From: Gammaproteobacteria bacterium
GTDB lineage: Bacteria; Pseudomonadota; Gammaproteobacteria; Ga0077536
Reading direction: 5' to 3'
DNA length: 64,000 nt
Assembly (NCBI GenBank): GCA_009692365.1
Contig: SHZJ01000007.1
Span: 30,867 to 94,866 of the forward strand
The notes under the pieces are model-generated. The model was not told the DNA's origin. It saw only the letters and a program-made list of their open reading frames with translations, and did no database searches. Position 1 is the first letter of the stretch. Each line of letters starts with the position of its first letter. This document shows, piece after piece, positions 47,709-51,198 of the stretch. A program made the position numbers and the translations under genes.

Positions 47709-48065
47709 TTAAGCCACGGCGGATGGACGTTTTTTTTCTACCAGAATTTCCCGGTAGCGGGTTGGCCCAGCGTTGCGTGCGCTGTGGGTGGCAGGCACCC
47801 GCAGGCCTTTGTCGTCAGAGGAGATAAGCTCGCCGTTGGCGCAATGAAACGCGAAGCTCGCGCCGGCGAGGGCGTCGAAACCACCCAGCGGCTCGTCGTT
47901 CGCATCAAAAACTTCGAGATGCGTGCCGTCCAGCACATAAAAAACGTAATCCAGATGGTGCGTGTGGCAGGGCGTGGTGGCGCCCGGCTCTAGTGCAAAT
48001 TCCCAAATGATGAGGTGTTCGTCCTCAAAGACTTTTTGGGTGCCAACTTCATCTTTTATGCTCAT
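47709..48065 (-). CDS. Small cupin-domain protein
   Basis: VFEDEHLIIWEFALEPG..HTHHLDY...H..RNAG...EILVE. Confidence 0.75.
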   Translation of the reverse strand: MSIKDEVGTQKVFEDEHLIIWEFALEPGATTPCHTHHLDYVFYVLDGTHLEVFDANDEPLGGFDALAGASFAFHCANGELISSDDKGLRVPATHSARNAGPTRYREILVEKKRPSAVA

Positions 48066-48067
48066 TT

Positions 48068-49075
48068 TCAGGCTCCTTGGTGGTTGCCGCGCACATCGTC
48101 GCTGTGCGCCAGCAGGGTGTCGAAATAACGGATGGTGCGGGCTAAGCCCTCGCGCAACGCAACCCGCGCCGTCCAGCCTAGCGTGTTGCCCGCCAGGGTG
48201 ATGTCAGGACAGCGGTGCCGGGGGTCATCGCTGGGCAGCGGGCGATAGGTCAGGGTGGAGCGTGAGCCGGTGAGCTCGATCACTAGCGCTGCCAGCTGCG
48301 CGATGGTGAATTCGCTGGGGTTGCCCAGATTCACCGGGCCTACGACTGTGGCGGGCCCGTCCATCAGGGCGATGAGGCCCTCAATGAGATCGTCAACGTA
48401 GCAGAAAGAACGGGTTTGCTGGCCATCGCCGAACAACGTGATGGGCTGGTGGCGCAGCGCCTGCACAATAAAATTGGACACCACCCGGCCGTCGTCAGGG
48501 TGCATGCGCGGCCCATAGGTATTAAAAATTCGCGCTACTTTGATCGCGACGCCGTGCTGTCGGTGGTAATCGAAGAACAGCGTTTCGGCACAGCGTTTGC
48601 CTTCGTCGTAGCAAGCGCGCAGGCCGATCGGATTGGTATGGCCCCAATAGCTTTCGACTTGCGGATGCTGATTGGGGTGGCCGTAGACCTCGCTGGTGGA
48701 CGCCTGCAGAATTTTGGCATCCGTGCGCAGCGCGAGATCCAGCAGATTAATGGCCCCGTGCACGCAGGTTTTGATCGTTTGCACCGGGTTGCGCTGGTAG
48801 TGCACCGGCGAGGCGGGGCAGGCGAGATTGTAGATTTCGTCCACCTCCACGTGCAGCGGCAGCGTTACATCATGACGCAAGAATTCAAACCTCGGGTGGG
48901 TCTGGAACGACCGAATATTGTCCTTGGAGCCGGTAAAGAGGTTGTCGGCGCACAGCACTTCGTCGCCCCGGGCCAACAGGCGTTCCGTTAAGTGGGAGCC
49001 GAGGAAGCCGGCACCGCCGGTAATCAGGATGCGCCGAAGACTTTTTGGGCGGCTGTTACTAGGTAGTTTATTCAT
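48068..49075 (-). CDS. UDP-glucuronate decarboxylase (UDP-xylose synthase, Uxs-like)
   Basis: [57 protein letters not shown]. Confidence 0.92.
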
Positions 49076-49095: not shown

Positions 49096-49112
49096 CTGGC
49101 ACATGCGTTGCA
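49096..49112 (+). promoter_or_regulatory. Sigma54 promoter for fliK
   Basis: CTGGCACATGCGTTGCA, near-consensus. Confidence 0.8.
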
Positions 49113-49149
49113 ATCTAGCAGTCATGCACCCAACACGGAACCCGTGACC

Positions 49150-50424
49150 ATGCCGAACGCCATTACCAACTTGCCGCCCGCCAGCGCGCCCCAGATCGAG
49201 AAAAGCCCATCAATCCAGAGCGATAGCGCCGCTTCGACGAGCGGTGAGGCGCGAGATTTCGCCGCAACACTGCGCGCGCTCGGTGATGCCAAGACGACTG
49301 ATGCGGCAAAGATCGACCCCGCGGCGGCAACGCCGGTCCCCGAACTGCCGCTGCTTGCCGCGCCCGCGACCATGACCGACGCCATGACCGACGCCATGAC
49401 CGGCGCCATGACCGACGCCATGACCGGCGCCATGACCGGCGCCATGACCGACGCCATGACCGACGCCATGACCGACGCCATGACCGACGCCATGACCGAC
49501 CCCATGACCGACGCCATGACCGACCCCATGACCGGTCCCAGTGCGGTAGCGGTCGCCAGCGTGGGTGATCCCGACGCGGCGGCGGTGGCCGTCAGCGCGC
49601 TGAACTTACCGCTGGTGCTACCCCGCGTGTTTATCCCGGCAGGCTCCCCACAGCTGCGGGTCGCGGCACAGTTTGCGGCACAGTTTGCGGCCGCAGCGAC
49701 CGGCCAATTAGCGGCCAACTCGCCCGCCAATAGCCCGCAGGCGGGCCGTGGGCCACAGCCCGCGGTGACCCCGGTAGGCCCGTCCCCGGACGACGCGCCG
49801 GCGCCGCCCGACGCCTCGCCCGCGGGGTCAGCCCCACCCGCCTTTAAACTGGCTGCGCTGCTGTCCGGCGGACCGCCACGGGACCTCGATGTCCAGCGCC
49901 TGGGCAGCGACACCCCCCCCGTGGGCTTGACCCCCGCGCAGACGGCGCCAGGGGCAGCCCTACACGAACGCGGCCCGACCGGGGTGCTGCACTTGGATAC
50001 TCAGTTGCCGGTAAACACACCGCGGTTCGCCGAGGGCTTGGGGCAGCAGGTCGTGGTGTTGGCCCAAAACGGGGTCCACCAAGCCCAGATGTCCCTCAAT
50101 CCGCCGGAGTTGGGGCCCATCGATGTCCGGGTTACGTTCCATCACAACGAGGTCAGCGTGCAAATTGCGGCCGCCAGCGGTCTGACCCGCGAGACCATCC
50201 AAGAGGCCTTACCCCGGCTGCGCGAACTGATGGATGCGGCCGGGGTCCGGCTCAACGACGCGGGGGTGTTTGCCCAATTGCCGCAACGCGAACAGGCCCC
50301 GCAGGGTCAGGTCCGCAGCGACTGGCTGATGGGTCAGGGTCAGGGCGACAACCTCGCCTTGGATACCGCCGCCATGGGCCCCACGTTGCTGCGGCGGAGC
50401 GGCCTTATCGATGCCTACGCCTGA
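49150..50424 (+). CDS. fliK: Hook-length control protein FliK
   Basis: Low-complexity Ala/Pro N-region; T3S4 domain LNPPELGPIDV...LPRLRE; ends IDAYA; lies before fliL. Confidence 0.92.
   Translation: MPNAITNLPPASAPQIEKSPSIQSDSAASTSGEARDFAATLRALGDAKTTDAAKIDPAAATPVPELPLLAAPATMTDAMTDAMTGAMTDAMTGAMTGAMTDAMTDAMTDAMTDAMTDPMTDAMTDPMTGPSAVAVASVGDPDAAAVAVSALNLPLVLPRVFIPAGSPQLRVAAQFAAQFAAAATGQLAANSPANSPQAGRGPQPAVTPVGPSPDDAPAPPDASPAGSAPPAFKLAALLSGGPPRDLDVQRLGSDTPPVGLTPAQTAPGAALHERGPTGVLHLDTQLPVNTPRFAEGLGQQVVVLAQNGVHQAQMSLNPPELGPIDVRVTFHHNEVSVQIAAASGLTRETIQEALPRLRELMDAAGVRLNDAGVFAQLPQREQAPQGQVRSDWLMGQGQGDNLALDTAAMGPTLLRRSGLIDAYA
49372..49539 (+). repeat. 14 x 12-bp in-frame tandem repeat ATGACCG[A/G]C[G/C]CC encoding MT[D/G][A/P]
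   Basis: Counted directly: 8 MTDA, 3 MTGA, 2 MTDP and 1 MTGP units. Confidence 0.97.
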
Positions 50425-50545: not shown

Positions 50546-50562
50546 TCGGCATGCTGCTTGCT
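50546..50562 (+). promoter_or_regulatory. Sigma54 promoter for the fliL operon
   Basis: TCGGCATGCTGCTTGCT after an AT-rich tract; FleQ-box-like GTCAAACGGCTGGC at 50481-50494. Confidence 0.75.
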
Positions 50563-50592
50563 TATTGGGTCTCCAACACAGAGGAGAACAGC

Positions 50593-51198
50593 ATGGCCGA
50601 AGCACCAGTCCCCGCCCCGAGCGGCTCCAGAAAGAAAATGATCGCGCTGATCGTGGTGGGCGTGCTGAGCCTGGTCGGGATTAGCGTGGGGGTCACCATG
50701 TTGCTGACCGGCGGCAAGTCAGACCCTGCGTCAGCCGCCAAAGCCAAGGACTCAGAGGCCGACGACGCTACTGCAAAAGAAGATGGCGACGCCGAAGCGG
50801 CCGCTGCCGAAGAAAAAGACGCCCCGGACGACGAGGCCGCTGCACAGGGCGAAGAGGGCGCAGAAAAACCCTCCGCCTATGTCTCATTAGCGCCCCCGTT
50901 TGTGGTCAATTTTTTAGACGAAAAAAAGCGCACCAAGTTTCTCAAGGCTGAAATCAGCCTCATGGCCAAGTCACCCAAAGTGCAGGCCGCGATCAAGGAA
51001 AATCTACCCGCCGTGCGCAACGCCTTGGTGATGCTTTTTGGCCGCCAAGTTTTTGAGCAGCTGATGACCCCCGACGGCAAGGAAAAACTGCGCGTGGACG
51101 CACTGTTCGAAGTGCGCGCGGTGGTCACCAAAGTGGCTGGAGCAAAAACCGGCAAAGGCATCGGAGACTTGTTCTTCTCCAGCCTCGTCATGCAGTAG
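50593..51198 (+). CDS. fliL: FliL
   Basis: N-terminal TM, acidic linker, FVVNF, GKEKLR, FSSLVMQ. Confidence 0.92.
   Translation: MAEAPVPAPSGSRKKMIALIVVGVLSLVGISVGVTMLLTGGKSDPASAAKAKDSEADDATAKEDGDAEAAAAEEKDAPDDEAAAQGEEGAEKPSAYVSLAPPFVVNFLDEKKRTKFLKAEISLMAKSPKVQAAIKENLPAVRNALVMLFGRQVFEQLMTPDGKEKLRVDALFEVRAVVTKVAGAKTGKGIGDLFFSSLVMQ

What the first reader, a model, noticed from the sequence alone, without database searches (positions are those of the whole stretch)
49372..49539. 12-bp tandem repeat inside the FliK molecular ruler: possible slippage-tunable hook length
Seen: 14 near-identical in-frame 12-mers (56 aa, MT[D/G][A/P]) in the N-terminal region of fliK. Almost no synonymous divergence suggests recent expansion. 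Known: hook or needle length scales with the length of FliK/YscP-type rulers, roughly 0.2 nm per residue in enterobacterial systems. Inference: each unit gained or lost keeps the frame and would shift hook length by just under 1 nm; the whole array would be worth on the order of 10 nm. That would be a contingency locus acting on a mechanical property (hook flexibility, flick turning of a polar flagellum).
Basis: partly seen in the sequence, partly recalled or inferred. Interest (0 to 1): 0.75.

Follow-up and report, generated by a model that had tools for sequence, protein, structure and literature searches.

The report
In-frame 12-base repeat in fliK
The flagellar hook-length ruler gene of an uncultured freshwater bacterium carries a real, recently expanded run of fourteen 4-residue repeats in its spacer; relatives differ by whole units, but a programmed switch of hook length is not shown.

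Summary
Window 49372-49539 is 14 in-frame 12-nt units (ATGACCGACGCC; MT[D/G][A/P]); 8 of 168 bases differ from the consensus. The array is residues 75-130 of a 424-aa FliK (ATG 49150; Pfam Flg_hook 70.7 bits) in a polar-type flagellar cluster.

- **Origin:** it is an expanded, homogenised version of a degenerate 4-residue periodic segment at the same site in the closest relatives.
- **Unit steps:** array lengths there are 33, 37, 41 and 45 aa against 57 aa here, always steps of 4 aa.
- **Second array:** a sister clade varies an adjacent heptad array (4, 5, 6 or 8 copies) among alleles at least 90% identical.

So ruler length does change by whole units in nature. The contingency-locus reading is unproven:

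- One unit is worth about 0.8 nm, against a 55 +/- 6 nm spread in Salmonella.
- This genome holds 349 tandem arrays, and fliK ranks ninth among the 56 short-period ones.
- Public k=31 contigs break inside the array, so heterogeneity is untested and 14 may be a lower bound.

Repeat-number variation in rulers is known for YscP. This scan has noted FliK repeats in other genomes.

The parts
49097..49112 (+). sigma-54-type promoter consensus (TGGCAC-N5-TTGCA), about 38 nt upstream of the fliK ATG
   Evidence: It is the only exact match to TGGCACNNNNNTTGC in the 64-kb window (sequence). It lies inside the spurious TTG-start extension. The same stretch is conserved in relatives, and in G006 the extension is interrupted by a TAG. 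The consensus itself is recalled, not taken from a call.
49150..50424 (+). fliK coding sequence, 424 aa (hook-length control protein)
   Evidence: Pfam Flg_hook 70.7 bits. The relatives' called proteins start at the aligned MSNAI/MPDAI. The gene sits between fliJ and fliL.
49258..49272 (+). F37-A-A-T-L41, candidate gate-recognition motif (export docking signal)
   Evidence: F37 and L41 are invariant in the 8-sequence alignment A1. Rod and hook subunits carry the motif at residues 36-40 (PMC8983047, passages). The assignment is inferred from position and pattern only.
49372..49539 (+). the finding: 14 in-frame 12-nt units, MT[D/G][A/P], residues 75-130
49663..49691 (+). second, perfect 12-nt duplication in fliK (AAQF x 2.4)
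   Evidence: TRF reports period 12, 2.4 copies, 100% matches. Relatives have a single AAQF.
49714..49737 (+). older 12-nt duplication (ANSP ANSP) whose two copies differ by synonymous changes
   Evidence: It is absent from the relatives in alignment A1.
50044..50289 (+). FliK C-terminal (T3S4 / Flg_hook) domain, the export-switch module
   Evidence: The Pfam match covers residues 324-405 of the 449-aa frame. It is the best-conserved block in A1. The AF2 model gives four strands and two helices there at pLDDT about 50.

Best explanation
The array is a genuine in-frame minisatellite (VNTR) in the length-tolerant spacer of FliK. That spacer is the low-complexity stretch between the N-terminal export signals and the C-terminal switch domain. 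The array arose by replication slippage or unequal recombination. This amplified and homogenised one unit (GCC ATG ACC GAC, AMTD) of an older, degenerate 4-residue periodic segment that the nearest relatives still carry at the same site.

Gains and losses of whole units keep the frame, so FliK length drifts in 4-residue steps in this lineage. On the Salmonella calibration, each unit would move the upper limit of hook length by about 0.8 nm. The 12-24 residues by which this allele exceeds its relatives would move it by about 2-5 nm, which is inside normal hook-to-hook scatter.

The array is therefore best read as near-neutral or weakly selected length drift of a ruler spacer, in a genome generally prone to in-frame repeat expansion. 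It is not best read as a dedicated switch.

Shown: the array, its reading frame, the gene identity, homology to the relatives' arrays, unit-step differences between natural alleles, and the repeat richness of the genome. Inferred: the slippage mechanism, the size of the hook effect and near-neutrality.
For: **Array and frame.**

**Homology to relatives.** In register, relative L002 has 10 units at the same site. Its first unit (GCCATCACCGAC) and fourth unit (GCCATGGCCGAC) each match the window's consensus at 11 of 12 bases. TRF finds only degenerate periodicity there: 72-74% matches in L002 and 78% for the 24-nt row in L003.

**Array length between conserved anchors (L003 counted by hand).**
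- Window: 57 aa.
- P0002 cluster: 33 aa in 4 of 4 full-length members.
- L003: 37 aa.
- P0003 cluster: 41 aa in 14 of the 15 members read, and 45 aa in 1 of 15 (P0067).
- All of these differ by multiples of 4 aa.

**Length accounting.** The array explains nearly all the total length difference, 424 aa against 401-413 aa.

**A second variable array next door.** In a sister clade the heptad AANxDxQ, sitting just upstream of this site, varies within clusters of at least 90% identity.
- Cluster 3: 12 full-length members, 8 with 5 copies and 4 with 4 copies.
- Cluster 4: 8 full-length members, 4 with 5 copies, 2 with 4, 1 with 6 and 1 with 8.

**No length constraint.** Related FliK proteins run from about 343 to 451 aa as called, so length is not tightly held.

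**Repeat-rich genome.** The genome has 349 distinct TRF arrays, 101 per Mb. Of these, 56 have a period of 30 nt or less and at least 4 copies. 41 of those 56 have a period divisible by 3, most inside long open frames. fliK ranks ninth by score. fliK itself holds two further 12-nt duplications.

**Calibration.** 0.2 nm per inserted residue over 363-785 aa (PMC6126814, passage). Hooks measure 55 +/- 6 nm (abstract).
Against: - No second allele of this species was found, so drift in this array itself is extrapolated from relatives.
- The array is far purer and longer than any relative's. This could reflect selection for a longer ruler rather than drift.
- Among the 150 best representative homologues only 3 carry any comparable tandem array, and only one of those is an ordinary FliK. 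Such arrays are therefore not the rule in FliK.
- Three 4-residue duplications in one gene is suggestive of either a local mutational hotspot or selection for length.
- The hook effect rests on Salmonella data. No hook of this organism has been measured.
Confidence: 0.7

Rival explanations
1. Contingency locus. The pure 12-nt array mutates fast enough that single populations hold several FliK lengths. The resulting heritable hook-length classes, with different buckling or flick behaviour of a polar flagellum, are selected under changing conditions.
For: - The array is long (14 units) and pure (95%), the state in which slippage is most frequent. That rule is general knowledge, recalled.
- Whole-unit differences exist among natural alleles of relatives, including 4 to 8 heptads within 90% clusters.
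- The cluster is polar-type: FlhF scores 203 bits against a cut-off of 174, with a MinD/FlhG-like ATPase and FliA alongside.
- Engineered FliK length changes do change hook length linearly, and motility is optimal near wild-type length (PMC6126814).
- A minor 54-nt contig with 4 differing letters lies on 49478-49531 in run X1, at depth 2 against 10 for the exact-matching contig there. This may be a variant array.
Against: - The effect per unit is about 0.8 nm, against +/- 6 nm scatter.
- N-terminal deletions of up to 80 aa kept motility and did not shorten hooks in Salmonella (abstract).
- The nearest relatives' arrays are almost invariant within clusters: 4 of 4, and 14 of 15.
- The same internal unit junctions occur in contigs of a second study's sample: X3 matches 49397-49438 and 49478-49531 without differences.
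- 55 other short-period arrays in the same genome need no such explanation.
- No heterogeneity test was possible.
Confidence: 0.12
2. The array is real but the number 14 is an assembly product. A longer run of identical units was collapsed by a short-read de Bruijn assembler. This is compatible with the best explanation and concerns only the count.
For: - The genome is a 79-contig, 93%-complete assembly.
- None of the k=31 contig sets of four runs bridges the array. Contigs end at 49399 and restart at 49495 in X1.
- The pure run (units 7-10 plus flanking bases) is 61 nt long. By my own reasoning, that is the minimal traversal a k=55 graph would give for any true run of 61+12n nt.
Against: - All k-mers of 55 nt or more in the assembled array are unique, and the longest exact internal repeat is 49 nt. 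Reads of 100-150 nt can therefore resolve the array as written.
- Junction contigs in X1 match the window without differences.
- The assembler and its k values are unknown to me.
Confidence: 0.2
3. The repeat has a sequence-specific role rather than being a spacer. Examples would be a Met-rich ligand- or metal-binding segment, or a repeated contact site for the hook cap or the hook channel.
For: Every unit holds a Met. All but one of the 8 unit differences change the residue.
Against: - Relatives have I, V, L or A where this array has M, and their units are highly degenerate. Neither Met nor the unit sequence is conserved.
- A sister clade expands a different unit at a neighbouring site.
- The AF2 model gives coil at pLDDT 30-42 there, although the model as a whole is poor.
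Confidence: 0.04

Closest known systems
YscP, the injectisome needle-length ruler of Yersinia (T3S4 family)
   Same: It is a secreted ruler with a C-terminal switch domain. Its length varies naturally between strains through different numbers of internal repeated motifs (14, 25 and 46 aa; proteins of 452, 515 and 538 aa). Protein size correlates linearly with the length of the structure (PMC3469391, passages seen, citing Wagner et al. 2009).
   Different: YscP repeats are long units in a virulence apparatus. Here the unit is 4 residues (12 nt), far purer, and sits in a flagellar ruler of a free-living freshwater bacterium. No length measurement exists for this organism.
Salmonella enterica FliK (405 aa; FliKN 1-207, linker, FliKC)
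   Same: Same family (Flg_hook domain), same gene neighbourhood and same three-part layout. Engineered insertions lengthen the hook by 0.2 nm per residue (PMC6126814). The domain limits come from the abstract of PMC6972891 as listed.
   Different: Sequence similarity is confined to the C-terminal domain. The NCBIfam enterobacterial FliK model scores 33.9 bits against a cut-off of 396. As far as I recall, Salmonella FliK has no tandem array. Here the spacer carries a 14-unit array plus two small duplications.
In-frame VNTR or minisatellite loci of bacteria (recalled examples: the 12-nt vrrA repeat of Bacillus anthracis used for typing; size-variable repeat lipoproteins of mycoplasmas)
   Same: Short units whose length is a multiple of three, kept in frame, and changing by whole units between strains.
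   Different: Those examples are recalled and come from no call here. Most are surface or unknown-function proteins. In this case the protein's length itself is thought to be the functional parameter.
Phage tail tape-measure proteins (recalled)
   Same: They are length-determining proteins whose internal tandem duplications change the length of the assembled structure.
   Different: Unrelated fold and assembly mechanism. Not examined here.

Membership tests
FliK / T3S4 hook-length control proteins | C-terminal Flg_hook (T3S4) switch domain | tested here: met
   PF02120 scores 70.7 bits against a cut-off of 29.8, covering residues 324-405 of the 449-aa frame. phmmer finds 11199 library proteins at E<=0.001, and the top hits are FliK-length proteins aligned over this domain.
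FliK / T3S4 hook-length control proteins | Encoded in the flagellar export/switch gene cluster after fliJ and before fliL | tested here: met
   The order is fliI, fliJ, then a cupin and an epimerase/dehydratase on the opposite strand, then fliK, fliL, fliM, fliN, fliO, fliP, fliR, flhB, flhA, flhF. fliN and fliO are named from gene order and the sequences; they were not scanned against a family library.
FliK / T3S4 hook-length control proteins | N-terminal export signals (hydrophobic extreme N-terminus and a gate-recognition motif near residue 36-40) | tested here: inconclusive
   The protein starts MPNAIT, and F37xxxL41 is invariant in 8 of 8 aligned sequences. The position agrees with PMC8983047. 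Export itself was not tested.
FliK / T3S4 hook-length control proteins | Match to the curated enterobacterial FliK equivalog | tested here: not met
   NF007514 scores 33.9 bits against a cut-off of 396. This is expected for a distant FliK and bears on equivalog status only, not on family membership.
FliK / T3S4 hook-length control proteins | Protein length sets hook length | not testable with these tools
   Needs electron microscopy of hooks in length variants.
Contingency locus (hypermutable repeat giving heritable, reversible phenotypic variation within a population; definition recalled) | A simple repeat tract in a position where unit changes alter the product | tested here: met
   14 in-frame units lie in the coding sequence.
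Contingency locus (hypermutable repeat giving heritable, reversible phenotypic variation within a population; definition recalled) | Copy-number heterogeneity within a population or between close isolates of the same lineage | tested here: inconclusive
   No contig bridges the array in 4 of 4 runs laid. No second allele above 70% identity was found. Relatives show unit-step differences, but their own arrays are mostly fixed within 90% clusters.
Contingency locus (hypermutable repeat giving heritable, reversible phenotypic variation within a population; definition recalled) | A selectable phenotype that changes with unit number | not testable with these tools
   The predicted change is 0.8 nm per unit, from the calibration. 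Whether that matters is unknown.
In-frame VNTR / minisatellite | Head-to-tail units of a multiple of 3 nt, high identity, whole-unit length differences among homologous alleles | tested here: met
   Array lengths of 33, 37, 41, 45 and 57 aa all differ by multiples of 4 aa.

The most novel reading that the evidence does not exclude
In this freshwater lineage the flagellar ruler is a natural 'mechanical VNTR'. Two adjacent repeat arrays in FliK (4-residue and 7-residue units) expand and contract in different sublineages. Natural populations would then hold heritable hook-length classes on which selection for swimming or turning behaviour of a polar flagellum acts. This would be the first natural case of repeat-driven tuning of a flagellar dimension.
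Probability: 0.12. Interest if true: 0.7.

Novelty: new member of a known kind. Interest (0 to 1): 0.35.

Why it matters
Rulers of type III secretion machines are among the few proteins whose length, not fold, is read out as a physical dimension. Natural repeat-number variation with a measured effect is documented for the needle ruler YscP. For FliK, the papers I read describe engineered length variants.

I found no paper in the held library describing natural tandem-repeat copy-number variation in FliK linked to hook length. That library lacks most subscription journals.

The alleles collected here form a ready-made natural series: 33-57 aa of tetrapeptide array, and 4-8 heptads in a sister clade. 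They could test whether small ruler-length changes matter for a polar flagellum. If they do not, the locus is a clean example of how far a ruler spacer can drift without cost.

Tried and rejected
1. **Read-level copy-number test.** Six freshwater-metagenome runs hold the stretch. The four laid are Logan k=31 contig sets, and all break inside the array, so no verdict is possible. Parts without cover in X2-X4 (about 49515-49840) are not interpreted. A 43-nt X2 contig lies on 49449-49486 with two 2-nt insertions and remains unexplained.
2. **Other alleles of this array.** The 5.8-billion-protein search gave nothing above 69% identity. The metagenome scan matched 597 pattern stretches, none encoding a relative.
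3. **Structure.** The AF2 model on an 8-row alignment is poor (mean pLDDT 35.7, pTM 0.19). It is used only to note coil at the array and a weak beta/alpha C-terminal domain. No fold search was run on it.
4. **Start codon.** TTG 49075 is rejected. The extension holds the sigma-54 consensus, relatives' proteins start at the aligned Met, and G006 has a TAG in the extension.
5. **Minus-strand ORF 49122-49913 (263 aa, VMAS repeats).** Rejected as a shadow frame. Its GC2 (0.686) exceeds its GC1 (0.614), whereas fliM, fliI and flhA have GC2 of 0.39-0.49, below their GC1. It was not searched against any library.
6. **Met-rich binding idea.** Rejected, because Met is not conserved in relatives.
7. **Survey criterion.** My self-match detector misses degenerate arrays such as P0002's, so '3 of 150' counts only fairly pure arrays. 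P0217 matched through its own PTEAVTEA repeat only, and I did not treat it as a FliK.
8. **Independence of rows.** Cluster members are not independent. Some rows are the same contig called with two starts, for example P0079 and P0081, both on a 21179-nt contig.

Full report
**1. The observation**

Window 49372-49539 consists of 14 head-to-tail 12-nt units in one reading frame. TRF reports period 12, 13.8 copies, 95% matches, no indels and score 295.
- Eight units are ATGACCGACGCC (MTDA).
- Three units have GGC for GAC.
- Two units have CCC for GCC.
- The last unit is ATGACCGGTCCC.
- In all, 8 of 168 bases differ from the consensus, and only one difference is synonymous.

A two-unit pattern occurs 12 times in the 3.46-Mb assembly, always in this array. 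The reversed control pattern occurs 0 times.

**2. The gene**

The surrounding open frame carries Pfam Flg_hook (70.7 bits against a cut-off of 29.8) near its C-terminus. Its neighbours were identified as follows.
- Upstream: fliI (from its sequence) and fliJ (Pfam).
- Between fliJ and fliK, on the opposite strand: a cupin gene and an NAD-dependent epimerase/dehydratase gene.
- Downstream: fliL and fliM, then fliN and fliO (named by order and sequence only).
- Further downstream: fliP, fliR, flhB, flhA, flhF (203 bits against a cut-off of 174), a MinD/FlhG-like ATPase, fliA, cheZ and cheA.

I did not test flagellar placement.

The 449-aa frame from TTG 49075 is too long, for three reasons.
- The only exact match in the window to the sigma-54 consensus TGGCAC-N5-TTGC lies at 49097-49111, inside the extension (the consensus is recalled).
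- Relatives' proteins begin at the aligned Met.
- In G006 the extension holds a TAG.

FliK therefore runs from 49150 to 50424 (424 aa), and the array is residues 75-130. It lies downstream of the invariant F37xxxL41, a candidate gate-recognition motif by position (PMC8983047 passages). It lies upstream of an Ala/Pro-rich stretch and the switch domain (residues about 299-380).

An AF2 model on a shallow alignment is poor (mean pLDDT 35.7). It shows coil at the array and a weak four-strand, two-helix C-terminal domain. I draw nothing more from it.

**3. Origin of the array**

The window belongs to a 79-contig, 93%-complete assembly. Six freshwater-metagenome runs hold the stretch. The titles of related genome records mostly read 'uncultured Gammaproteobacteria'.

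FliK was found in 28 of the 41 genomes searched, counting the window's own. The nearest relatives, G006 and G010, are 67% identical.

At the same site, between the conserved anchors PELPxxAAP and xSA[VL]A[AV]AS[AV]GD, these relatives carry a degenerate 4-residue periodic segment such as AITD VATG VVGN AMAD ALTG VVAD TLTD AAAG TVAD ALAD.
- TRF sees only 72-74% matches in L002 and 78% for the 24-nt row in L003.
- In register, two of L002's ten units match the window's consensus at 11 of 12 bases.

The window's array is therefore homologous to the relatives' segment. It has been expanded and homogenised from one unit type.

**4. Unit-step variation in nature**

Lengths of the tetrapeptide array:

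| Allele | Array length | Source |
|---|---|---|
| Window | 57 aa | |
| P0002 cluster | 33 aa in 4 of 4 full-length members (a fifth member is a fragment) | |
| L003 | 37 aa | hand count |
| P0003 cluster | 41 aa in 14 of the 15 members read; 45 aa in 1 (P0067) | |

All of these differ by multiples of 4 residues. The array accounts for nearly all the difference in total length, 424 aa against 401-413 aa.

A sister clade instead expands a heptad, AANxDxQ. That heptad sits just upstream of this site, where the window has about two degenerate copies (AAKIDPA AATPVPE). Copy numbers within clusters of at least 90% identity are these.
- Cluster 3: of 12 full-length members, 8 have 5 copies and 4 have 4 copies.
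- Cluster 4: of 8 full-length members, 4 have 5 copies, 2 have 4, 1 has 6 and 1 has 8.
- Two further proteins (P0007, P0012) have arrays interrupted by a substitution, which my pattern undercounted.
- Three rows are fragments.
- Some rows are the same contig called with two different starts, so the rows are not independent.

Another genus member (L006) has a 21-nt array of 3.3 copies at 95% matches, encoding SADPEAA, in the same region.

The stretch just after the export signals is thus a recurrent site of in-frame repeat gain and loss in this group.

**5. How unusual the array is**

Among the 150 best of 11199 library hits (representatives at 50% identity), 3 carry a fairly pure tandem array by my criterion.
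- One is a sister-clade FliK.
- One is a 1638-aa protein with 11 tandem FliK C-terminal domains.
- One matched only through its own repeat.

Pure arrays are therefore uncommon in ordinary-length FliK proteins. Earlier notes of this scan report repeat-expanded FliK rulers in at least seven other genomes. Those notes are unchecked.

Within this genome the array is not special.
- TRF finds 349 distinct arrays, or 101 per Mb.
- 56 of them have a period of 30 nt or less and at least 4 copies.
- 41 of those 56 have a period divisible by three, mostly inside long open frames.
- fliK ranks ninth by score.

fliK itself holds two more 12-nt duplications: AAQF x 2.4, which is perfect, and ANSP x 2, which is older.

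**6. Expected effect on the hook**

In Salmonella, FliK variants of 363-785 aa gave hooks of 42-135 nm, a slope of 0.2 nm per inserted residue. Motility was best near wild-type length (PMC6126814; passage, abstract; its supplementary data were not seen).

On that scale the expected changes are these.
- One unit: 0.8 nm.
- The whole array: about 11 nm.
- The excess over relatives (12-24 residues): about 2-5 nm.

Wild-type hooks measure 55 +/- 6 nm. N-terminal deletions of up to 80 aa did not shorten hooks (abstract of bioRxiv 10.1101/2020.03.25.007062). That supports FliK as a limiter of maximal length rather than a strict ruler. Single-unit steps are therefore well below normal scatter.

**7. 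What could not be tested**

Copy-number heterogeneity in this lineage remains open. The public contigs (k=31) of all four runs laid break inside the array. In X1 one contig ends at 49399 and the next starts at 49495, with short junction contigs in between that match the window exactly. X3, from a second study, holds identical junction contigs at 49397-49438 and 49478-49531.

The assembled array is resolvable in principle. Its longest exact internal repeat is 49 nt, and every k-mer of 55 nt or more is unique. However, the 61-nt run of identical units equals the minimal path through a k=55 loop. This is my own reasoning, and the assembler is unknown. So 14 may be a lower bound.

**8. Verdict**

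The array is a real, recently expanded in-frame VNTR in the spacer of a genuine FliK, and its relatives show that the spacer changes by whole units.

The step to a contingency locus that tunes hook mechanics is not supported by any test available here. It is made less likely by four results.
- The small effect per unit (point 6).
- The near-fixity of the relatives' arrays within 90% clusters (point 4).
- The many other arrays in the genome (point 5).
- The Salmonella deletion data (point 6).

Natural repeat-number variation in a ruler of the same family is already described for YscP (PMC3469391). I therefore class this as a new member of a known kind, of moderate interest. Its main value is as a natural allelic series for testing how much ruler length matters.

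Noticed in passing
window 49097-49112: A perfect sigma-54-type -24/-12 consensus (TGGCACATGCGTTGCA) lies about 38 nt upstream of the fliK ATG. Its conservation in relatives mimics a conserved 'peptide' and leads ORF callers to over-extend fliK. Some database proteins of the sister clade start 18 residues early (MAQGLQFSS...).
   Followed up: partly
window 47709-49075 (minus strand): A small cupin gene and an NAD-dependent epimerase/dehydratase gene sit on the opposite strand between fliJ and fliK. Translated frames resembling both proteins also flank fliK in relative L004, and one resembling the epimerase does so in L012. A link to sugar modification of the flagellum is possible but untested.
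   Followed up: partly
G000:C36:57907-58259, G000:C46:1-537 and G000:C4:75562-75694: The genome is rich in in-frame short-period arrays. Examples are 12 nt x 29.4 (A[D/E]TR), 15 nt x 35.8 (AAPAK, at a contig end) and 15 nt x 8.9 at 100% identity (KVAQA). In all there are 349 TRF arrays, 101 per Mb.
   Followed up: partly
window 50551-51198 (fliL); L002 3119-3153; L003 3152-3183: FliL carries an acidic low-complexity insert after its membrane segment. Relatives show 15-nt tandem repeats in the corresponding region, and the window has a 9-nt x 2.1 repeat at 50846-50864. A second flagellar protein therefore evolves by small tandem repeats.
   Followed up: no
protein P0108: A 1638-aa database protein holds 11 tandem copies of the FliK C-terminal (Flg_hook) domain at a period of about 95 aa, plus a 31-aa Pro-rich repeat upstream.
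   Followed up: partly
window 49449-49486, run X2: A 43-nt contig (depth 5.7) lies on the array with two 2-nt insertions (CG after 49460 and after 49472). The same run's flank contig differs from the window at 49343 and 49352. This may be a related strain with a different unit structure. It remains unexplained.
   Followed up: no
loci L040, L042, L044: Three of the nine related genome records carry species names in their titles (two Klebsiella pneumoniae, one Hydrogenophaga intermedia). These sit oddly beside the 'uncultured Gammaproteobacteria' titles of the other six. They are probably labelling errors in the records.
   Followed up: no
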